A stretch of 64,000 nucleotides of DNA from a virus. The stretch lies in IMG/VR virus record IMGVR_UViG_3300045454_000060, positions 38,456 to 102,455 of that record. One strand, 5' to 3'. Below are positions 2,614 to 62,978 of the stretch, piece by piece. A program made the translations under genes and the position numbers. The notes under the pieces are model-generated. The model was given only the letters and a program-made list of their open reading frames with translations. It ran no database searches and was not told where the DNA came from. Position 1 is the stretch's first letter; each line of letters begins with the position of its first letter.

Positions 2614-2680
2614 CTGACAATCAGTCATCGCTGAGATATGCTAGTGTTCGCCATTGAATAGGCGACACAGGAGCATACCG

Positions 2681-3496
2681 ATGAGCAAGTCCCTTCGCGG
2701 TTCCCGGCGTGAAAACGCCAAGAACAAGAGGGAGGGACGTGGTGTGCTCCCCCTCACGTCCTCTTGCGAGGACGCATTGCGCGACTTTCCTGCCGCGCGC
2801 GAGACTGCATTCCGACCCATCAACACCTCCCAGGCGCGCTATGCCGGTTTGATCGGCTCGATGGAGCTGGTCTTCGGGCTGGGCCCGGCCGGCACCGGCA
2901 AGACCTATGTCGCCGGGATGCTGGCCGCCGAGGCGCTGCTCGAGGGCAGGGTGAAGCGCATCATCGCCACGCGGCCGATCGTCGAGGCGGGAGAGGAGCT
3001 CGGCTTCCTGCCCGGCGAGCTCGAGGAGAAGACCGCCCCTTATTTCCGCCCGCTGCGCGAGGTGCTGGAGCGGCGTCTCGGCCGCGGCCATGTCGAGGCG
3101 CTGATCAAGGGGCGCAAGATCGAGATGCTGCCGCTCGCCTTCATGCGCGGGCACTCCTTCCAGGACGCCTTCGTCATTCTCGACGAGGCGCAGAACACCA
3201 CCCCGACGCAGATGAAGATGTTCCTGACCCGCCAGGGGGAGGGGTCGGTCGTGGTGGTGGACGGCGACAGCACGCAGAAGGACATTCCCGGCCCGTCCGG
3301 CCTGGTCGATGCCGTGCGTCGCCTGCGCGATCTGCCGAGCGTCGGCGTTCATCGCTTCACGCGCGAGGATATCGTGCGCTCCGGGCTGGTGCAGGCGATC
3401 GTGGAGCGCTACGAGGAGCCCGACGAGGCCTTCGAGGCCGAGGTCGAGGATGCCACGGCGGGGTTGCAGCGGGTGCTGGATCTGCGTCGCCCTTGA
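2681..3496 (+). CDS. phoH: PhoH-family ATPase
   Basis: GPAGTGKT, LGFLPG, FMRGHSF, ILDEAQN, GDSTQKD, DIVRSGLV; AGGAG SD before ATG 2681. Confidence 0.95.
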   Translation: MSKSLRGSRRENAKNKREGRGVLPLTSSCEDALRDFPAARETAFRPINTSQARYAGLIGSMELVFGLGPAGTGKTYVAGMLAAEALLEGRVKRIIATRPIVEAGEELGFLPGELEEKTAPYFRPLREVLERRLGRGHVEALIKGRKIEMLPLAFMRGHSFQDAFVILDEAQNTTPTQMKMFLTRQGEGSVVVVDGDSTQKDIPGPSGLVDAVRRLRDLPSVGVHRFTREDIVRSGLVQAIVERYEEPDEAFEAEVEDATAGLQRVLDLRRP

Positions 3497-3521
3497 AAAT
3501 CCCGGGCGGGGCGGGCATATT
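3493..3521 (+). promoter_or_regulatory. Sigma70-like promoter TTGAAA-17nt-CATATT
   Basis: Exact 17-nt spacing, at the start of a 300-nt intergenic region. Confidence 0.5.
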
Positions 3522-3522
3522 G

Positions 3523-3785
3523 CCGGAGGCCTGGAGCGGGAGCGATCCCGCCCCAGGCGCCGTCCGGTAGGCTACCCGGCGGTTCCGAATTGCACTCGGA
3601 ACCGCCACCTACCGAACCGGACTTCCAGATACACCCTCACGAGCATATCTGTTCTCCGGTTGGTGTGGCGTGATTGCCACACCCTTCGGGCGTCGTGACG
3701 CCCGAAGCCCGAGCGCGAGGTGCATCCCGCGTCGTGCCGTGATGCTAGCAGATTCTCCCGGAGAGCGGGGCATCTCCTGCCCCGC
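3523..3785. ncRNA. Highly structured intergenic RNA candidate
   Basis: At least six hairpins, e.g. GGCGGTTCCGA/TCGGAACCGCC 3578-3606, GGTGTGGC/GCCACACC 3662-3683, CTTCGGGCGT/ACGCCCGAAG 3684-3707; closing stem CCGGAG(3523)/CTCCGG(3654). Confidence 0.5.
3572..3646 (-). CDS. Putative 24-aa peptide MLVRVYLEVRFGRWRFRVQFGTAG
   Basis: GGAG SD 7 nt before ATG on the minus strand; basic/hydrophobic peptide inside the structured region. Confidence 0.4.
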   Translation of the reverse strand: MLVRVYLEVRFGRWRFRVQFGTAG

Positions 3786-3802
3786 GCGACTATGCTTGCC
3801 GC

Positions 3803-4606
3803 ATGACGAGACTGAGCGATCTGACGTGGTGGGAGGCCGACTTCCCCGGCAAGTCCCTCGACCGCGACGCCTGCGAGGCGCTGTTGTTCGACCGCTGGCC
3901 CGAGCGTGAGCGTCGGCGCGAGCCGGAGCTGATGGGCACCAAGTGGTGGGATGTGCGCCTGCTGCACCCTGTCCAGGCGACCTATTGGTTTGCGCATCTG
4001 CTCACGTTCGAGGTGCGGCGGATCATTCGCGAGCATCTCGACGACCGCGCGCCCTCGCTCAGCGCGTCCGGGCGCGTGCTCGACTGGCACCCGATCAAGA
4101 GCGGTGACGTGTTCGAGCCGCCCTTGGATGAGCGCCGGCGACCCTACTGGAAGCGCAAGATCATCGGTCTGATTCGGGCACGCCAGGCAGCCGATCTCGA
4201 CGGGGTGCCCTACGAGGTGTTTGTCGCCTCCGGCCTCAAGCATTTCTATTTCGGCCGCGGCGCCTATGTGCTGGCACGGTCGGCGGTGAAGATGCCGGAG
4301 CCCAATCTGCTCTACGGCGAGAACTGCCTGGCGCAGATCCGCGAGGACTGGCTCGCGCAGCTCCAGGTGCGTCCCTGGGCGGCCAGGCACGGGCGCTATC
4401 GCCTCGCGCATGATGACGGCCATCCCGATCATCGCGCGCATCGCGACTGGCTGGTGCAGCAGCTCTCCCTGCGCTCCCAGCCCGAGCTTGCTGCGGCGCG
4501 GCTGGTGCGCGACGGGCTGCTGTCGCGCCCTGAGGCCGAGAAGGTCTGTCTTGCGCGGGGGCGATCGGTGTTGACGCGGTTCAGCCGCGCCCTGGAAGGG
4601 GCGTGA
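3803..4606 (+). CDS. Hypothetical protein upstream of the helicase (possible initiator/loader)
   Basis: 267-aa ORF with phage-like codon usage; function inferred from position only. Confidence 0.7.
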   Translation: MTRLSDLTWWEADFPGKSLDRDACEALLFDRWPERERRREPELMGTKWWDVRLLHPVQATYWFAHLLTFEVRRIIREHLDDRAPSLSASGRVLDWHPIKSGDVFEPPLDERRRPYWKRKIIGLIRARQAADLDGVPYEVFVASGLKHFYFGRGAYVLARSAVKMPEPNLLYGENCLAQIREDWLAQLQVRPWAARHGRYRLAHDDGHPDHRAHRDWLVQQLSLRSQPELAAARLVRDGLLSRPEAEKVCLARGRSVLTRFSRALEGA

Positions 4607-4666: not shown

Positions 4667-6010
4667 GTGATGACGACGCCGGTTTACGAGTTCGACGCCG
4701 AGACACAGACCGAGATCTGCTCGCTGCTGATGTGGGACCATGATTTCGCTCGTCGCACCGATGGGCTGATCAAGCCTGCCTATCTGGAGAACGATGTCGA
4801 GCGCGGCTTTGCGCGGCTCGCGATCGCCTTCTTCCGTCGCTATGGCGAGGTGCCGTCGCGCACTGCCTGGGTCGAGCTGGTCAAGGATGGCTTCAAGCTG
4901 AAGCCGCCGATCTGGCGCGAGGATCAGAAGAAGGACGTGGTCGAGAGGCTGGCGCTGACCGCGCGGCTGACCGTGCGCTCCCGCCAATTTCTGCTCGACA
5001 AGATCGCCGAGTTCGCGCAGCAGCAGGAGATCACCCAGGCGATGATCTCGGCGGCGGCCGAGCTCGGTAAGACGCACGACCCGGAGCGCTTCGCGCGCAT
5101 CAAGGACAGGCTCGGCCAGGCCTTCGCGGTCGGGCTGCGCGACGGCGACGAGGATTACGACTTCTTCGAGCGGATCGAGGAGCGCACGGAGGATCGCCTT
5201 GCGCGTGCCTCGGGTTCCCTGCCGCGCACCGGCATCACCACCGGGATCAGGGAGCTTGATGGTCTGCTGACCACGCATGGCGGCTGGGGCCGCAAGGAGC
5301 TCAGCCTGTTCATGGGGGCGATGAAGGCCTCCAAGAGCTTCCATCTCACGAGTGCGGCGGCGGCGGCCGTGATGGCCGGCAAGAACGTGCTGTTCGTCAC
5401 CTGCGAGAACGCGATCGACATCCAGGCCAGGCGCATCGACGCCTACATGTCCGACATCGCCATGTCGGATTTCCTGCGCAGTCCGCATACCGTGCGCGGC
5501 GCGGTCGAGGCGGTGGCGGTCTCGGGCAGAGTCGGCAAACTCAAGATTCGCGAGTTCCCGACCATGCAGTTCCGCCCCCGCGACCTCGAGCGATTGATCG
5601 AGGAATACAAGACCAAGGGGCTGATCTTCGATCTGGTCGTGATCGACTATCTCGACCTGATGACCTCCGACATGCCGATCGAGAAGGACACCGAGCGCTC
5701 CAAGCACATCTATGCGCGTTGTCGCGGCATCGCCATGAAGGAGGGGTTCGCGCTGCTGAGCGCCACCCAGACCACGCGCCAGGGGGCGAAGGCCGCCGTC
5801 GCCACTGCCACCGATGTTGCCGAGGACATCAATCGGGTGCGCATCGCCGATCTCGTGATCTCGATCAATCGCACGGAGGAGGAGCGCGCGAACGGCAAGG
5901 CACGCCTCTACATCGCGGCGGCACGCAATGAGCGCGACGGTGTCACCCTGTTCATCACGCAGGATCTTGATCGTGGCAGGGCGGTCAAGGACGTCGAGGC
6001 GGTCGAGTGA
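4667..6010 (+). CDS. dnaB: DnaB-like SF4 replicative helicase
   Basis: ITTGIRELD, variant Walker A GAMKASKS, Walker B LVVIDYLD, ATQ and ADLVISIN motifs. Confidence 0.88.
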   Translation: MMTTPVYEFDAETQTEICSLLMWDHDFARRTDGLIKPAYLENDVERGFARLAIAFFRRYGEVPSRTAWVELVKDGFKLKPPIWREDQKKDVVERLALTARLTVRSRQFLLDKIAEFAQQQEITQAMISAAAELGKTHDPERFARIKDRLGQAFAVGLRDGDEDYDFFERIEERTEDRLARASGSLPRTGITTGIRELDGLLTTHGGWGRKELSLFMGAMKASKSFHLTSAAAAAVMAGKNVLFVTCENAIDIQARRIDAYMSDIAMSDFLRSPHTVRGAVEAVAVSGRVGKLKIREFPTMQFRPRDLERLIEEYKTKGLIFDLVVIDYLDLMTSDMPIEKDTERSKHIYARCRGIAMKEGFALLSATQTTRQGAKAAVATATDVAEDINRVRIADLVISINRTEEERANGKARLYIAAARNERDGVTLFITQDLDRGRAVKDVEAVE

Positions 6011-7098
6011 GGGGCGAGCTCGAGGCGCTGATCGCTGACCTCGATCTCGAGGCGCTGCTCGATCACTTCGGGGTGGATTACCGGCGCACCGGCGGCGGCT
6101 CGAATCTCAACCTGCGCGAGTGCCCGTTCTGCCATGACGATCGCTGGCGCGCCTATATGAGCGTCGAGAAGAAGCTCGGGCTCTGCTTTCACGCCGACTG
6201 CCAGAAGCGCTGGAACCTGTTCTCCTTCGTCCGCGCCAAGCTCGAGACCGATGCGCGCGGGGCGATCAGATTCCTCGAGGATTACGGCAGCCAGGTGCTG
6301 GGCAGATCGACCCGCGCCAGCCTGGCGCGTGGCCAGGCGAGGCTGCCGACCGCATGGGAGCTGCCGGCGTCGGTGCCGCTGCCGACCGATGACGGCATGA
6401 CGCATCCCTACCTGGTGACGCGGCGCATCCTGCCCTTGACGCAGAGCCTGTTCGGGCTGCGCTGGTGCGAGGACGGCATCTACAGCTACGAGGACGTGGA
6501 CGGGCGGGCGCGGCGCATGTGGTTCGGCGGGCGGGTGCTGCATCCGATCTGCGATCTCGACGGCACGGTGGCGACCTTTGTCGGTCGCGATGTCGGTGGC
6601 GCCTCCACCGTTCGCTACCTGTTCCCGCCCCTGCTGCCGGCGGCCGGGCGCTACCTTTACGGGGGCGAGCGTCTGTCCGGTTTTGCGCATGTGGTGCTGG
6701 GCGAGGGCCCTTATGACTGCCTGGCGATTCACCAGGCGATCGTCGACCACCCGGATTTTCGCGATACGGCCGCCGCGGCCACATTTGGCCTGTCGATCGG
6801 ACATGCCGATCCCGAGAGCGGGAACGACCAGCTCGGGAGGCTGCTGCGCCTCAAGGAGACGGGTCTGCGGCGCGTGACCTTCCTCTGGGATGGCGAGAGG
6901 AACGCGCTCAAGGCGGCGCTCGAGGCGGCCGAGCTGGTGGCTGCGCATACCGGGTTGCACGTGCGCATCGGTCTTCTTCCCGGGGGCAAGGATCCGGCCG
7001 AGCTGGAGACCAGGGAGGTGCGTGCTGCGATCGGCCAGGCCAGACCGTTCGAGCCGCGTCTCAAGCTGCTGTGGAGCCTGAAGAACCCCTATGATTAA
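6007..7098 (+). CDS. DNA primase (Zn finger + TOPRIM)
   Basis: CPFC..CFHADC zinc binder, FVGR, EGPYD, LWDGE, GKDP; coupled to the helicase. Confidence 0.88.
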   Translation: MRGELEALIADLDLEALLDHFGVDYRRTGGGSNLNLRECPFCHDDRWRAYMSVEKKLGLCFHADCQKRWNLFSFVRAKLETDARGAIRFLEDYGSQVLGRSTRASLARGQARLPTAWELPASVPLPTDDGMTHPYLVTRRILPLTQSLFGLRWCEDGIYSYEDVDGRARRMWFGGRVLHPICDLDGTVATFVGRDVGGASTVRYLFPPLLPAAGRYLYGGERLSGFAHVVLGEGPYDCLAIHQAIVDHPDFRDTAAAATFGLSIGHADPESGNDQLGRLLRLKETGLRRVTFLWDGERNALKAALEAAELVAAHTGLHVRIGLLPGGKDPAELETREVRAAIGQARPFEPRLKLLWSLKNPYD

Positions 7099-8756: not shown

Positions 8757-9761
8757 TTATGACAAATCTTGGGCCTGGGTGATCAGCCGGAAGCCCTGCA
8801 TCTGGGTGCGCGGCACCGCCGCTGGCGACGGCTTCAGCGTCAGCCCGTATGAGCCGCACTCGATCTGCGCGTCGGGATAGACCGCCAGCACGTCCGGCAG
8901 CACCTGACGGATGCGCTGCGCCAGGGACGAGACACGCGCATCGCCGGCGCCGAGCTGGGCGCGCAGCGTGCCCCAGCGGAGATGCAGCGGCGTGGTGAGG
9001 CGTGGCAGCCGGTAGGCGAACAGGGCGTAGAGATCGAGCCCCAGCGAGTTGTCGGCCAGGTAGGCGATTGCACGTCGATCCAGCGGCACGGCGTGCTCGC
9101 GCAGATGCGCGTGGAATCGATCGGAGAGCTCCACCGTCTGTGCCCAACGCCCCTCGCCGCGTTCGGTCCAGAGCTCGAGCCCCTCGACAATGCGGCTCTC
9201 CTGGACGAGCGTTCGCGTCTCTCCGTTCGCACCTGCAGCATCCCATTGCAGCGTGAACGAGCACCGCGCGATTCGCAGCGCCTGCTGCCGCACGGCCTGG
9301 ATCGAGCCTCGCGCCCCGCCGGTGACCGGCAGTCCGAGCGAGCGAATCCAGGCGCTCATGGAGGGTCCGAGCTGGACGATCTTGTCCTTCAGGCCCTCGG
9401 TCTGGAGATAGATCAGGATCAGGCGTGCCTTGGGGCCGTAGGGCACGCCGACGCGCACCGCCTTCCCCTCCTCCACGATCGCCCCGGGGCTGACCAGCAG
9501 ATGGAACCGTCCCGCACTGCGCTGCCAGATGGCGTTGTCGTTCGGCGGGCGGCTGTGCGGCAGGAAGGTCTGGCAGAGCCCGGAATGCAGAAAGGCGAGC
9601 TCCTCGGCATTCGGCAGATCGGACAGGATCTCGTGCGCGACCTCGATTCGCTGGCGAAGTTGACGCTGCTTCGTCGGGCTCGGTTCGGCCGCGACGGCGT
9701 TCAGGCTCGCTTCGAGACCAATCAGCTCGAGCTGGCTTCGCTGTGTGCGACTCATGGGCAC
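8757..9761 (-). CDS. repA: Plasmid replication initiator, RepA_C-type
   Basis: FLHSGLCQTFLP, GVPYGPKARLILIYL, HAVPLD, LDLYALFAYRL motifs; adjacent to iterons and parA. Confidence 0.88.
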   Translation of the reverse strand: MPMSRTQRSQLELIGLEASLNAVAAEPSPTKQRQLRQRIEVAHEILSDLPNAEELAFLHSGLCQTFLPHSRPPNDNAIWQRSAGRFHLLVSPGAIVEEGKAVRVGVPYGPKARLILIYLQTEGLKDKIVQLGPSMSAWIRSLGLPVTGGARGSIQAVRQQALRIARCSFTLQWDAAGANGETRTLVQESRIVEGLELWTERGEGRWAQTVELSDRFHAHLREHAVPLDRRAIAYLADNSLGLDLYALFAYRLPRLTTPLHLRWGTLRAQLGAGDARVSSLAQRIRQVLPDVLAVYPDAQIECGSYGLTLKPSPAAVPRTQMQGFRLITQAQDLS

Positions 9762-9799
9762 CTCCGCCGACGCTGATACAGGATTCGGCGACGGGGGCT

Positions 9800-10095
9800 A
9801 CGCTGAATCGCCTACCTTTCGGCGTTGAGCCACAAGATTTTGTGTCCCCTGCCCTTCCTGAATGCCGGATGTGAGGGTCGCGCGGTTGCTCACGAACCCG
9901 TGACGCTGAATCGCCTACCCTGCGCCGCCTATAGGAGAAAGGTATAGGTTTTATATAGGGTTGGGTTGGCGATTCAGCGTGGATAACGCGAGTCGCGGTC
10001 GGCGATTCAGCGTGCGACTCGGCCGTGCCCGGTAGGCGATTCAGCGTAGCTCGGTCGGCGATTCAGCGTGGATAACTCGCCGATGCTGTGGATAA
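9800..10095. repeat. Plasmid origin: six 17-bp iterons, AT-rich spacer and DnaA box
   Basis: ACGCTGAATCGCCTACC at 9800 and 9903; inverted GGT(A/C/T)GGCGATTCAGCGT at 9964, 9997, 10031, 10053; AT-rich 9929-9958; TGTGGATAA at 10087-10095. Confidence 0.88.
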
Positions 10096-10096
10096 C

Positions 10097-10480
10097 TCAG
10101 AACCCCAGATGGCGCAGATATCGGTCAAGCGCCTCCTCGACGATGGCCTGCTTTTCGCGCCGCGCGTGGAACGCGGCCTGGCGCAGACGCTCCTGCAGGC
10201 TCGCGGGCAGACGCACCGAGACGGTGATGCGGGGTTCGATCGGTGCCGGGTCGGGCGCTGCCGCGCGTGCCCCCTCCCCCCCGCGCGCCCTGGATGTGGG
10301 GTTGTGGGGCTCGTAGAGTGCCTCTGGTGCGTCCGCGCGGGTTGTCCCCTCCCCTCCCCCATCGTGTTCCAGCAGCACTCTGGGCGCTTCCTGGGGCAGT
10401 GCTGGCACGGGAACCGCAGCGCCCTTGGTGGCGCGCGGGATGGCGAGATCCTCGAGGGTCGGTCGCTTGCTGGCGCTCAT
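10097..10480 (-). CDS. Ribbon-helix-helix partition adaptor (ParG-like)
   Basis: Disordered N-terminus plus C-terminal RITVSVRLPASLQERLRQAAF..KQAIVEEAL; 4-nt overlap with the parA stop. Confidence 0.75.
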   Translation of the reverse strand: MSASKRPTLEDLAIPRATKGAAVPVPALPQEAPRVLLEHDGGGEGTTRADAPEALYEPHNPTSRARGGEGARAAAPDPAPIEPRITVSVRLPASLQERLRQAAFHARREKQAIVEEALDRYLRHLGF

Positions 10481-11148
10481 GCCGGCACCTTCCTGTTGAC
10501 GAGCTGGCTGGCTGGCAAGCTGGCGGGCTTGCCGTTCAGACGGTTGCTCAGATAGCGCCACAGCTCGGCGAACTCCCGTGCCGGCGTGCCCTTCGGGTCG
10601 ATTTCGACCGCGGTGCGACCGTCGATCCCGCTCTCGCGGATCTTCGTGCTGAGCGAGATGATCGCTGGGGCGACCGTGCCGTGCTGGCTGAGCTTGATCG
10701 CGGTCTGTGCGGTCAGCCTGGCGCGCCGATTGGCGCCGTTGATGATGAACACCACGGGTTTGCCTTCGCTCTCCACCAGGTCGATCGTGCCGCCGACCGC
10801 CCGCAGGTCGTCCGGTGAGGGCAGTGTTGGCACCAGCACCAGGTCGGCCAGGTGGATCATCGCGCGCACCAGCTCCGAGGCTTGCGGCGGCGTGTCGATC
10901 ATGGCGTAGCGGTAGCCGCTCTGGCGCAGGCGGGCCAGGATCGCGGGCATCTCGGCGAGGCTGGACTGCACGAAATCCGGCCGCTCCTCCGCCCTGGCGT
11001 TCCACCACTGCGACAGCCCGCCCATCTCGTCGGCGTCGATCAGGGCGACCGGCCCCTCCCCTGCCCTCTCCGCCTCGACCGCCAGATGGCGCACCACGGT
11101 CGTCTTGCCCGCGCCACCCTTGCGGCAGGCCACCACGATGGTCTTCAT
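10477..11148 (-). CDS. parA: ParA (type Ib) partition ATPase
   Basis: KGGAGKTT, LIDAD, IDTPP, ADLVLVP..PSPDD; no N-terminal HTH. Confidence 0.92.
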   Translation of the reverse strand: MKTIVVACRKGGAGKTTVVRHLAVEAERAGEGPVALIDADEMGGLSQWWNARAEERPDFVQSSLAEMPAILARLRQSGYRYAMIDTPPQASELVRAMIHLADLVLVPTLPSPDDLRAVGGTIDLVESEGKPVVFIINGANRRARLTAQTAIKLSQHGTVAPAIISLSTKIRESGIDGRTAVEIDPKGTPAREFAELWRYLSNRLNGKPASLPASQLVNRKVPA

Positions 11149-11149
11149 C

Positions 11150-11620
11150 TGCGACTCCGTGTGCGACTCCGTGCCAACCGGCAGGCAACCTGGCATGCCG
11201 CGCGGCTGGCAGGCAAGTCGAGTGCGCGGCTGGCAGGCTGGTCAGCGGGACGGATGGGCGAGGGGGCAGCTTGCGGGCCGTTCGGCTTGGCGCGTGGCTG
11301 GCTGGCGGGAAAGCGGACTGCGCGGCGAGAGGGCCAGCAGGCGGGCTTAAAGGCGGACGGGCTGACGGACAAGCTGGAAGGCGGGCAGGCCGGCTGACGG
11401 GTGGGGTGACCAGTCAGCGGGCGGGCGGGCTGTTTGGCAGGCAGGTGGCACGGCCTGCTGTCAAGTCTGCCGTCAAGCCGGGCGTCAAGCCGGACGGCAA
11501 GCAGAGCAGTGGTGTGGCTGGCGGGCTGCGCGCCTGGGCAGCGGCGTTGCTGTCTGAGCGGTCATGTTGGAAGCTTGCTAGTCAGCATGCTTGCTGGCAG
11601 AGCAGCAAACAAGAAGGGCC
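11150..11620. repeat. Degenerate tetramer-periodic repeats (GCTG/GCAG/GCAA/GCTT); candidate parC centromere/operator
   Basis: Non-coding region upstream of parA rich in GCTGGCAGGC, GCAAGC and GCTTGC; TGCGACTCCGTG x2 at 11150-11173. Confidence 0.5.
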
Positions 11621-11661
11621 GCTCGCGATGGAGCGGCCCTCTCGGCGGCGCGGCAGCAGGA

Positions 11662-12096
11662 TCAATGCGCGCTCTTGCCCCGACGCTTGGCGAGCGGCTT
11701 CAGCGCGTCCTCGACCACCTCGTCGAAGGGCGGCAGGCTCTCCGGGAACATCGTGCGGAGCCCGGTCAGCCACTCCCGCTCGACCTTCGAGACGGTCGGG
11801 TCCATGTATTCGTCCAGCACGCGCAGGATCTCCGGCGCATACTCGCTCATCCAGAGCCGCAGCATGGCGGTGGGGTCCGCCTCGAGCGCCTGGGCGAGCG
11901 CGGGCACCTTGTCGAGCGGCACGCGGGTCACGCCGGTCTTGAACATGGAGATGATGTTGGCGCGCTCGTAGCCGAGCGCTTCGGCGATCTCGCGCTGCGT
12001 CATGCCGCGCGCATTCGCCTCCACAAGCAGTCGCTCCAGGTGTCGCACGAACTTCGCACCCAGTCGTCGCGCCTTCGTTGCCTGGGTCATGTCCAT
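11662..12096 (-). CDS. XRE-family HTH regulator (candidate prophage repressor)
   Basis: MTQREIAEALGYERANIISMFKTGVTRVPLDKVPALAQAL; AAGGAGGGG SD; divergent AT-rich promoter region. Confidence 0.85.
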   Translation of the reverse strand: MDMTQATKARRLGAKFVRHLERLLVEANARGMTQREIAEALGYERANIISMFKTGVTRVPLDKVPALAQALEADPTAMLRLWMSEYAPEILRVLDEYMDPTVSKVEREWLTGLRTMFPESLPPFDEVVEDALKPLAKRRGKSAH

Positions 12097-12159
12097 CCTT
12101 TGCACCCCCTCCTTGGGGTGATCAGCCCTCACTGACCACCCTCACCCACGTCCCCGTGA

Positions 12160-22596: not shown

Positions 22597-22620
22597 GGGA
22601 GGGGCCCTATGGCCCCTCCC
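22597..22620 (+). terminator. GC-rich hairpin after the SSB gene
   Basis: GGGAGGGGCC-ctat-GGCCCCTCCC; no U-tract. Confidence 0.45.
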
Positions 22621-43471: not shown

Positions 43472-43505
43472 ACGGGCGGGAGCGATCCCGCCCGTTTTGC
43501 CTTTT
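43472..43505 (+). terminator. Intrinsic terminator
   Basis: CGGGCGGGA-gcga-TCCCGCCCG then TTTT. Confidence 0.75.
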
Positions 43506-62918: not shown

Positions 62919-62978
62919 TCGGCCGATCACCGGGAGGGGCATGACCGCCCCTCCCACTCAGCGATGAGGAGATATGTG

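What the first reader, a model, noticed from the sequence alone, without database searches (positions are those of the whole stretch)
3493..3790. Multi-hairpin RNA with an antisense, SD-sequestered 24-aa peptide (type I toxin-antitoxin-like or replication-operon switch)
Seen: a + strand promoter (TTGAAA-17-CATATT) reads into six or more hairpins. On the minus strand a GGAG-led ORF encodes MLVRVYLEVRFGRWRFRVQFGTAG (3646-3572). Its SD (3654-3659) is complementary to 3523-3528, beyond the stop codon, and its start region folds in the CAGATA/TATCTG stem. Known: 5'-3' pairing that hides the SD, plus an overlapping antisense RNA, characterises type I TA loci that stabilise plasmids. Inference: a possibly new type I TA family (the peptide alternates hydrophobic and basic residues rather than forming a TM helix), or a structured leader controlling the helicase-primase operon.
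Basis: partly seen in the sequence, partly recalled or inferred. Interest (0 to 1): 0.7.

Follow-up and report, generated by a model that had tools for sequence, protein, structure and literature searches.

The report
Hairpin stack between phoH and replication genes
The 306-base gap between the phoH gene and the helicase-primase genes of this uncultured phage-plasmid really holds seven tight stem-loops, but it is probably a non-coding transcript-boundary element unique to this phage, not a toxin-antitoxin locus.

Summary
The window is part of a 102-kb, 65% GC viral record with phage genes plus RepA, iterons, ParA and a CI-like repressor, so it looks like a phage-plasmid.

**What is confirmed**
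- The 306-nt spacer 3497-3802 lies between phoH and a conserved 267-aa gene ("gene X") that precedes the helicase and primase genes.
- It holds seven stem-loops and is the most structured spot in the genome.
- The + strand promoter-like site, the 24-codon minus-strand ORF with GGAG, and the 6-nt complementarity all exist.

**What does not hold up**
- An ORF of this kind is expected by chance about 0.14 times per strand per spacer of this size.
- The peptide has no membrane helix and no homologue.
- No minus-strand promoter was found, and no Rfam, Pfam or PHROG family matches.
- Four metagenomic relatives keep the phoH-gene X order but have only 53-125 nt here, with one strong hairpin.

**Best reading (about 0.35)**
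- The stack punctuates + strand transcripts. It would stop, process or stabilise the phoH message.
- A C-rich, G-poor rut-like stretch is followed by hairpins without U-tracts.
- Gene X has its own TATGCT box 6 nt before an SD-less ATG.

**Live rivals**
- A promoter-driven structured leader or ncRNA.
- A minus-strand antisense sRNA: the left half folds 21 kcal/mol better on the minus strand, with 8 G-U pairs against 0.
- A DNA-level priming or origin site.
- Functionless palindrome accretion.

No expression data could be obtained.

The parts
2654..3496 (+). phoH-like ATPase gene; its stop codon TGA (3494-3496) overlaps the TTGAAA hexamer
   Evidence: Pfam PhoH E=1.5e-72. The C-terminus aligns with the relatives' phoH ends.
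3493..3521 (+). sigma70-like promoter match TTGAAA-17-CATATT (P1). The predicted start, about 3528, is at the foot of H1.
   Evidence: 9/12 match. It is one of nine + strand hits genome-wide, seven of them outside called genes. The start site is inferred.
3529..3558 (.). H1: 13-bp stem with a GCGA loop on +. There is one A-C mismatch on +, which is a G-U pair on -. No T-tract follows.
   Evidence: -25.9 on +, -28.4 on -. Its apical 18 nt (3536-3553) are identical to the T-tract terminator hairpin at 43476-43493.
3562..3622 (.). H2: long two-tier hairpin with a perfect 11-bp core at 3578-3606. The lower stem is completed by G-U pairs only on the minus strand.
   Evidence: -36.1 on +, -41.7 on -.
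3628..3652 (-). H3: 11-bp stem with a GUGA tetraloop on the minus strand (three G-U pairs). On + only the 6-bp CAGATA/TATCTG stem forms, with a 14-nt C-rich loop.
   Evidence: -13.4 on - against -3.5 on +.
3580..3657 (+). C-rich, G-poor stretch on the + strand (30 C, 14 G): a rut-like window
   Evidence: C/G = 2.14, the 99.4th percentile of all 78-nt + strand windows; local GC skew down to -0.41.
3572..3646 (-). 24-codon ORF (MLVRVYLEVRFGRWRFRVQFGTAG) with GGAG at 3654-3659; judged fortuitous
3662..3683 (.). H4: perfect 8-bp palindrome with a 6-nt loop
3684..3707 (.). H5: perfect 10-bp palindrome with a 4-nt loop, abutting H4 with no spacer
3710..3739 (+). H6: imperfect hairpin, slightly better on the + strand
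   Evidence: -15.3 on +, -12.7 on -.
3765..3785 (.). H7: perfect 8-bp palindrome with a 5-nt loop (UCUCC on +); no T-tract after it
3791..3796 (+). TATGCT box 6 nt before ATG 3803: candidate -10 element of the replication operon, giving a leaderless gene X mRNA (inferred)
   Evidence: 12 of the genome's 15 TATGCT copies lie outside called genes, and one sits just before phoH (2637); the relatives carry CTATAGT, CTATATA or CTATCTA boxes plus an SD at the same place. The window has no SD.
3803..4606 (+). gene X: conserved 267-aa all-alpha protein (phrog_2500), followed by a DnaB-like helicase (4667-6010) and a primase (6007-7098)

Best explanation
The spacer is a non-coding stack of RNA stem-loops, specific to this phage lineage. 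It marks the boundary between the phoH transcript and the replication operon (gene X, helicase, primase), and it acts in cis on + strand transcripts.

Proposed sequence of events:
1. RNA polymerase leaving phoH transcribes H1. H1 is a terminator-type GC hairpin without a U-tract.
2. It then transcribes an untranslated C-rich, G-poor stretch (3580-3657) where Rho can load.
3. The tight hairpins H4-H7 act as pause sites where transcription ends, and as 3'-exonuclease barriers that stabilise the upstream message.
4. The replication operon starts afresh from the TATGCT box at 3791 as a leaderless mRNA.

Shown here: the structures, their rarity, the lack of U-tracts, the C/G bias, the missing SD, and the presence of a hairpin in the relatives' spacers (right after the phoH stop in L004 and L006).
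Inferred: Rho loading, pausing, stabilisation, and the transcript starts.
For: - Position: the spacer lies between two co-directional genes at a module boundary, with phosphoesterase and phoH on one side and the replication genes on the other.
- Relatives: all four with the same gene order have a hairpin in this spacer, followed by a -10-like box and an SD. In L004 and L006 it is a strong 10-15-bp hairpin just after the phoH stop. So a stem-loop here looks like the ancestral state, and this phage has multiplied it.
- H1 has the polarity, the GCGA loop and an identical 18-nt apex of a bona fide T-tract terminator of the same genome.
- This phage's ordinary + strand terminators carry T-tracts. 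None of the seven hairpins does on either strand, so they are not simple intrinsic terminators.
- The C/G = 2.14 window is in the 99.4th percentile and is followed by four tight hairpins. That is the two-part layout expected of Rho-dependent terminators.
- Gene X has no SD, and a TATGCT box sits 6 nt before its ATG. This hexamer lies outside called genes in 12 of 15 copies and also precedes phoH.
- The seven palindromes all differ in sequence, which argues for structure and against one DNA-binding protein.
Against: - The left half (H1-H3) folds 21 kcal/mol better on the minus strand, with 8 G-U pairs against 0. A + strand RNA element should show the opposite bias.
- Seven hairpins are far more than a boundary needs.
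- A credible promoter-like site lies upstream of the stack rather than downstream.
- The TATGCT box has no recognisable -35 element.
- There are no expression data and no close relatives, so no covariation test was possible.
Confidence: 0.35

Rival explanations
1. Promoter-driven + strand structured RNA. P1 (3493-3521) starts at the foot of H1 and makes either a roughly 275-nt structured leader of the replication operon or a separate ncRNA. Exposed C-rich loops (CUACCC, CACCCUCAC, UCUCC) could pair with SD sequences. Alternatively the RNA could act as a ColE1 RNA II-like pre-primer for lytic replication.
For: - P1 is the best sigma70-like match in the region, and such matches cluster outside called genes.
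- The predicted start would give a 5'-terminal stem-loop, a known mRNA stabiliser (my own knowledge).
- The + strand fold has z = -6.7.
- Unchecked earlier notes of this scan report folded elements in front of helicase-primase genes in other phages. I treat these as a lead only.
Against: - The element is absent from the relatives.
- H1-H3 carry C-A mismatches on the + strand.
- An SD-less internal AUG would be translated poorly from a long leader.
- No hairpin is followed by a terminator that would end an ncRNA.
- No Rfam family matches.
Confidence: 0.2
2. Minus-strand antisense sRNA, analogous to lambda OOP or ColE1 RNA I. It would be a three-hairpin RNA of roughly 110-135 nt covering 3660-3527, convergent with P1 and phoH, and would modulate phoH or replication-operon transcripts.
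For: - The minus-strand fold of 3527-3660 is -91.1 kcal/mol (z = -8.5) against -70.3 on the + strand.
- There are 8 G-U pairs on the minus strand and 0 on the + strand. H3 forms an 11-bp stem with a GUGA loop only on the minus strand.
- The local GC skew is inverted relative to the genome.
- A TATGCT copy lies on the minus strand at 3647-3642.
Against: - There is no sigma70-like minus-strand promoter. The best -35 matches are 3/6.
- No U-tract terminator follows H1 on the minus strand.
- All neighbouring genes are on the + strand.
- About 10 of the 21 kcal/mol is explained by base composition alone (shuffle means).
- The plus/minus stability asymmetry is only z = -2.1 genome-wide.
- The loops are 3-4 nt, too short for kissing complexes.
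Confidence: 0.14
3. Type I toxin-antitoxin locus. A minus-strand mRNA encodes the 24-aa peptide, and the P1-driven + strand RNA is the antitoxin.
For: - The geometry fits. GGAG lies 6 nt before the ATG, the ATG is buried in H3, and a convergent + strand promoter-like site is present.
- The element has plasmid maintenance genes, so a stabilisation module would make sense.
Against: - The peptide has no hydrophobic or transmembrane segment. That segment is the defining property in the reviews consulted (abstracts of PMC6563280, PMC3919570 and PMC2887945).
- The ORF is at chance frequency.
- There are no homologues and no Rfam match.
- No toxin promoter was found.
- The locus is absent from the relatives.
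- The peptide's alternating pattern is what translating through both arms of hairpin H2 produces.
Confidence: 0.03
4. DNA-level element: single-strand hairpins that serve as a priming or helicase-loading signal, or as the lytic origin, for the adjacent helicase-primase.
For: - It lies immediately upstream of the helicase-primase module.
- Folding is strand-biased and also appears with DNA parameters.
- Four hairpins are perfect palindromes with no G-U pairs.
Against: - There is no AT-rich unwinding stretch. The lowest 60-nt GC is 0.57.
- There are no iterons. The longest direct repeats are 8-11 nt, in two copies.
- A classical RepA + iteron + DnaA-box origin lies at 9800-10098.
- Relatives with the same replication genes lack the element.
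Confidence: 0.1
5. No present function: recent accretion of palindromes (template-switch products or tiny hairpin insertions, possibly partly inverted) in a tolerant spacer.
For: - It is lineage-specific and has no similarity anywhere.
- Four stems are still perfect, which suggests a young age.
- The relatives manage with one hairpin.
Against: - A 23-fold local excess of perfect hairpins is hard to get without a cause.
- It sits exactly between a promoter-like site and the next gene's start.
- The element is single-copy in the genome, so it is not a spreading repeat.
Confidence: 0.18

Closest known systems
REP/BIME-type intercistronic stem-loops of enterobacteria (e.g. the malE-malF spacer); comparison from my own knowledge
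   Same: Several GC-rich stem-loops without U-tracts stacked between co-directional genes. They are thought to block 3' exonucleases and set the relative levels of neighbouring messages.
   Different: REPs are multi-copy families linked to RAYT transposases. This stack is single-copy in its genome, its hairpins are unrelated to each other, and nothing similar was found in the 401 alphaproteobacterial genomes sampled.
Rho-dependent terminators in front of phage replication genes (lambda tR1 between cro and cII-O-P); my own knowledge
   Same: An untranslated C-rich, G-poor RNA stretch followed by pause structures, placed upstream of the replication genes of a temperate phage.
   Different: No nut-type boxA/boxB and no N-like antiterminator were identified. 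Rho dependence is untested. The stack has far more hairpins than tR1.
ColE1 RNA II / RNA I and lambda OOP antisense RNA; my own knowledge
   Same: A promoter reads into a multi-hairpin RNA beside replication functions. The complementary strand would give a three-hairpin RNA of about 110-135 nt.
   Different: There is no minus-strand promoter or U-tract terminator. The loops are 3-4 nt instead of about 7 nt. No Rfam match. No conservation in relatives.
Type I toxin-antitoxin loci (hok/sok, fst, ibs/sib, zorO/orzO; PMC2887945, PMC3919570, PMC6563280)
   Same: A small ORF with its start buried in structure, and a convergent promoter-like site that could give an antisense RNA.
   Different: The peptide is cationic and not hydrophobic. 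The ORF is at chance level. There are no family matches, no toxin promoter and no conservation.

Membership tests
Type I toxin-antitoxin | Small hydrophobic toxin with a predicted transmembrane helix | tested here: not met
   GRAVY 0.12, best 19-residue Kyte-Doolittle mean 0.04, five Arg and one Glu, longest uncharged run 7 residues.
Type I toxin-antitoxin | Toxin mRNA with its own promoter on the ORF's strand | tested here: inconclusive
   No sigma70-like site on the minus strand in 3440-3960; the best -35 matches are 3/6. Only consensus scans were possible.
Type I toxin-antitoxin | Antisense RNA gene overlapping or adjoining the toxin gene | tested here: inconclusive
   A + strand promoter-like site at 3493-3521 would give an RNA fully antisense to the ORF.
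Type I toxin-antitoxin | Similarity to a described toxin or antitoxin family, or conservation of the ORF in relatives | tested here: not met
   Rfam: none. Pfam and PHROGs: none. tblastn against phages and plasmids: none. The segment is absent from L003-L006.
Intrinsic (Rho-independent) terminator | GC-rich hairpin followed directly by a U-tract | tested here: not met
   The hairpins are present, but none is followed by a T-run on either strand. The genome's other terminator hairpins are followed by TTT(T).
Rho-dependent terminator | Untranslated C-rich, G-poor rut region of about 70-80 nt | tested here: met
   3580-3657 has C/G = 2.14, the 99.4th percentile on the + strand. About a third of it is locked in the H2 stem.
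Rho-dependent terminator | Termination that depends on Rho | not testable with these tools
   Needs a read-through assay with and without bicyclomycin, or a rho mutant.
REP/BIME repeat family | Many dispersed copies of one palindromic unit | tested here: not met
   Single locus in the 102-kb genome. Only chance-level short hits in 401 alphaproteobacterial genomes (one of these genomes, G241, is unpublished, and nothing rests on it). The host is unknown, so the host genome itself was not tested.
Iteron or DnaA-type replication origin | Direct-repeat initiator sites plus an AT-rich unwinding element | tested here: not met
   Only 8-11-nt two-copy repeats. The lowest 60-nt GC is 0.57. A true iteron and DnaA-box array lies at 9800-10098 next to repA.
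Any curated RNA family (Rfam 15) | Covariance-model score at or above the gathering threshold | tested here: not met
   No hit in the 64-kb window. The best permissive hit is 19.8 bits against a threshold of 70.

The most novel reading that the evidence does not exclude
P1 and an unrecognised minus-strand promoter are convergent. They make complementary three-hairpin RNAs over 3528-3660, forming an antisense switch in the spirit of ColE1 RNA I/II, lambda OOP or P4 CI RNA. The switch would gate the phage-plasmid's own helicase-primase operon between plasmid maintenance and lytic replication. Less likely, the minus-strand RNA also encodes a new cationic, non-membrane type I toxin.
Probability: 0.12. 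Interest if true: 0.55.

Novelty: new member of a known kind. Interest (0 to 1): 0.25.

Why it matters
If the boundary reading is right, this is an ordinary piece of phage transcript punctuation in an unusually exaggerated form. It adds little beyond showing that a phage which uses U-tract terminators elsewhere relies on U-less hairpins plus a rut-like stretch at one module junction. It would matter more if the strand asymmetry reflects a real antisense RNA pair in front of the replication genes of a phage-plasmid. How such elements choose between plasmid and lytic replication is poorly understood outside P1, N15 and P4. The finding also removes a tempting false positive: a "new type I toxin family" that rests on an ORF at chance frequency.

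Tried and rejected
The DNA around the 20 protein relatives of gene X, including a 103-kb contig, could not be fetched.
So there is no RNA evidence, and read laying was not used.

**Searches that found nothing**
- The search for related loci in viral contigs, with the single protein and with the alignment.
- The search for related loci in genome contigs gave only 26-27% identity relatives.
- blastn of the spacer: no phage match, and only 22-45-nt chance hits in plasmids.
- Exact hairpin patterns in viral contigs: none.
- 401 alphaproteobacterial genomes: only chance-level hits of 20-46 nt, so a REP-like or CRISPR-repeat-like origin got no support.
- tRNA scan: none.

**Readings considered and dropped**
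- Stop-codon read-through of phoH. The frame stays open for 60 codons past TGA 3494-3496, but I estimated GC3 at about 0.63 by hand count, against about 0.85 in real genes. I judged it non-coding.
- One regulator binding all the palindromes. The seven palindromes are unrelated in sequence.
- CGTGAT as an operator half-site. It is not enriched outside called genes: 20 observed against 22 expected.
- A telomere-resolution site. No long perfect palindrome with a continuous centre is present.

**Gene X fold**
- The model is confident (pLDDT 86.6), but Foldseek and VIA-align found no informative match (best Z 4.6 over 42 residues). It gave no clue to the spacer's role.
- A profile search of the PDB gave only a marginal UDG hit, E = 0.004.

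**Technical**
- A 300-nt sliding fold timed out and was redone with 150-nt windows.
Full report
**Context.** The window is bases 38456-102455 of a 102,455-bp IMG/VR virus record that CheckV rates 93% complete. It is 65% GC, and almost all genes are on the + strand.
- Upstream of the finding lie a phage lysozyme (748-1347), a metallophosphoesterase (1405-2613) and phoH (2654-3496; Pfam PhoH 1.5e-72).
- Downstream lie a conserved 267-aa gene of unknown function (3803-4606; phrog_2500, "gene X"), a DnaB-like helicase (4667-6010) and a primase (6007-7098).
- Further on, on the minus strand, are a RepA_C initiator (8757-9761), ParA (10477-11196) and a CI-like HTH protein (11662-12132).
- Beside repA there are six iterons and three GTGGATAAC boxes at 9800-10098.
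- The element therefore looks like a temperate phage-plasmid. Its plasmid origin is about 6 kb away from the finding.

**The observation.** The finding is the 306-nt spacer 3497-3802.
- It contains the only sigma70-like match in 3000-4400, TTGAAA-17-CATATT at 3493-3521.
- It contains seven stem-loops: H1 3529-3558, H2 3562-3622, H3 3628-3652, H4 3662-3683, H5 3684-3707, H6 3710-3739 and H7 3765-3785.
- The structure is not chance. Against dinucleotide shuffles, z = -6.7 on + and -9.8 on -.
- Three consecutive 150-nt windows here are the 1st, 2nd and 3rd most over-folded minus-strand windows of the whole genome.
- Four of the genome's 58 perfect hairpins (stem >= 8) fall in these 306 nt, where 0.17 are expected.
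- The minus-strand ORF, its GGAG and the CCGGAG/CTCCGG complementarity are all present, but they are not statistically notable. Antisense-strand ORFs with SD + ATG + >= 20 codons occur at 0.14 per 306 nt. The hexamer occurs 53 times in the window. The predicted folds pair the SD locally rather than with 3523-3528.

**Known families.**
- Rfam gives nothing at gathering thresholds over the 64 kb. With permissive settings it gives only noise, at most 19.8 bits against a threshold of 70.
- No tRNA was found.
- The peptide has no Pfam or PHROG match and no tblastn match in the phage or plasmid collections.
- The spacer has no blastn match in phages and only chance hits of 22-45 nt in plasmids.
- Exact hairpin patterns are absent from IMG/VR.
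- A sample of 401 alphaproteobacterial genomes yields only chance-level matches of 20-46 nt.
- Within its own genome the spacer is single-copy. The exception is the 18-nt apex of H1, which is identical to the apex of a T-tract terminator at 43472-43495.

**Relatives.**
- Gene X has 20 protein relatives at 53-63% identity.
- A pattern scan of metagenome contigs gave four loci (L003-L006; 44-59% identity) with the same phoH-gene X order.
- Their spacers are only 53, 80, 85 and 125 nt. Each has a hairpin, which in L004 and L006 is a strong 10-15-bp stem just after the phoH stop. This is followed by a -10-like box (CTATAGT, CTATATA, CTATCTA; TATTAT in L006) and a GGGAG-type SD before the start codon.
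- In L004, L005 and L006 the + strand fold is the more stable one. In L003 the two strands are about equal.
- So a stem-loop after phoH and a promoter-like box before gene X look ancestral. The six extra hairpins, about 200-250 nt, are specific to this phage. No covariation test is possible.

**Which strand?**
- H4, H5, H7 and the H2 core are perfect palindromes and give no information on strand.
- In the left half (3527-3660) the minus strand folds to -91.1 kcal/mol (z = -8.5) against -70.3 (z = -6.6) on the + strand.
- The minus fold has eight G-U pairs and the plus fold none.
- H3 forms an 11-bp stem with a GUGA loop only on the minus strand.
- The same asymmetry appears as a C-rich, G-poor + strand: 30 C and 14 G in 3580-3657, the 99.4th percentile, with GC skew down to -0.41. 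This runs opposite to the genome's positive skew.
- About half of the energy difference is compositional, judging by the shuffle means of -55 and -45. The plus/minus difference is only z = -2.1 on the genome-wide scale.
- Two readings fit the same data: a minus-strand RNA, or a rut-like Rho loading stretch on the + strand RNA.
- H1 has the polarity, the GNRA loop and the apex of this phage's + strand terminators. No minus-strand promoter is detectable.

**Promoters.**
- Sigma70-like matches on the + strand are rare: nine in 102 kb. Seven of them lie in the 21% of the genome with no called gene, including one just before phoH (2614-2642) and P1 at 3493-3521.
- The hexamer TATGCT lies outside called genes in 12 of 15 copies. 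It is the -10 element of the pre-phoH site, and it also occurs at 3791-3796, 6 nt before the ATG of gene X.
- Gene X, unlike its relatives, has no SD. This suggests a leaderless gene X mRNA. That is an inference, and the -35 element is poor.
- A third TATGCT lies on the minus strand at 3647-3642 and contains the ATG of the 24-codon ORF.

**Mechanism.**
- I favour a + strand, cis-acting transcript-boundary element (0.35). H1 is a U-less terminator-type hairpin. It is followed by a rut-like stretch, and then by four tight hairpins that pause polymerase and protect the 3' end. Gene X then restarts from its own box.
- This phage's ordinary terminators have T-tracts and none of the seven hairpins does. 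So the stack is not a set of intrinsic terminators. It works more like REP/BIME stem-loops or a Rho-dependent site.
- The rivals are:
  - a P1-driven structured leader, ncRNA or pre-primer (0.20);
  - functionless palindrome accretion (0.18);
  - a minus-strand antisense sRNA (0.14);
  - a DNA-level priming or origin signal (0.10): it has no AT-rich stretch and no iterons, and the true iteron origin is elsewhere;
  - the type I TA reading (0.03).
- The TA reading fails on its defining feature, a hydrophobic toxin (definitions from the abstracts of PMC6563280, PMC3919570 and PMC2887945 listed). It also fails on homology, on conservation and on the toxin promoter.

**Earlier notes of this scan.**
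- A note on iterons at 9775-10095 was checked and holds.
- Notes on other phages that place folded elements in front of helicase-primase genes are unchecked AI leads. They kept the pre-primer and origin rivals alive but are not evidence here.

**Verdict.** This is a real and statistically striking hairpin stack. It is non-coding and lineage-specific, and it is most likely ordinary transcript punctuation in an exaggerated form. The type I TA interpretation is not supported. The minus-strand folding bias remains the one unexplained feature that could hide something more interesting. Only strand-specific transcript mapping, or closer relatives, can settle it.

Noticed in passing
window 3803-4606: Gene X (phrog_2500) is a Trp-rich, all-alpha 267-aa protein. 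In the four relatives recovered it follows phoH. The AlphaFold model is confident (pLDDT 86.6, pTM 0.85), but no solved structure resembles it. The only hit is a marginal profile match to a family-4 uracil-DNA glycosylase (E = 0.004).
   Followed up: partly
window 2637-2642, 3791-3796, 3642-3647 (minus); genome-wide: TATGCT (often TATGCTAG) lies outside called genes in 12 of 15 copies. Several copies abut a palindrome TAGTCAGCGCTGA (for example 187 nt before the window start, and at window -23846 and -18764). This is a candidate phage promoter and operator motif.
   Followed up: partly
genome 1000-2300 (36-37 kb before the window start): A stretch of about 1.3 kb with almost no called genes. 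It holds five perfect hairpins, three TATGCT copies and three TGCTAG copies (two of them TGCTAGC). This is a second, larger regulatory-looking island.
   Followed up: no
window 8757-12132 and 9800-10098: A plasmid-type maintenance module inside a phage genome: RepA_C, six GGCGATTCAGCGT iterons, three GTGGATAAC boxes, ParA and a CI-like repressor. The element is probably a phage-plasmid.
   Followed up: partly
window 22597-22620 and 62932-62955: Two near-identical hairpins GGGAGGGGC...GCCCCTCCC lie 5-8 nt before start codons and have no T-tract. The SD-like GGGAGG is locked in the stem, which suggests possible translational control.
   Followed up: no
window 43472-43495: A canonical T-tract terminator whose 18-nt apex (GCGGGAGCGATCCCGCCC) is identical to that of H1 in the spacer.
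   Followed up: partly
L006:2861-2985: In the most distant syntenic relative the phoH-gene X spacer is AT-rich (45% GC). It has a 15-bp hairpin and two CTTAGTCT direct repeats, so it is more origin- or promoter-like than the spacers of the GC-rich relatives.
   Followed up: no
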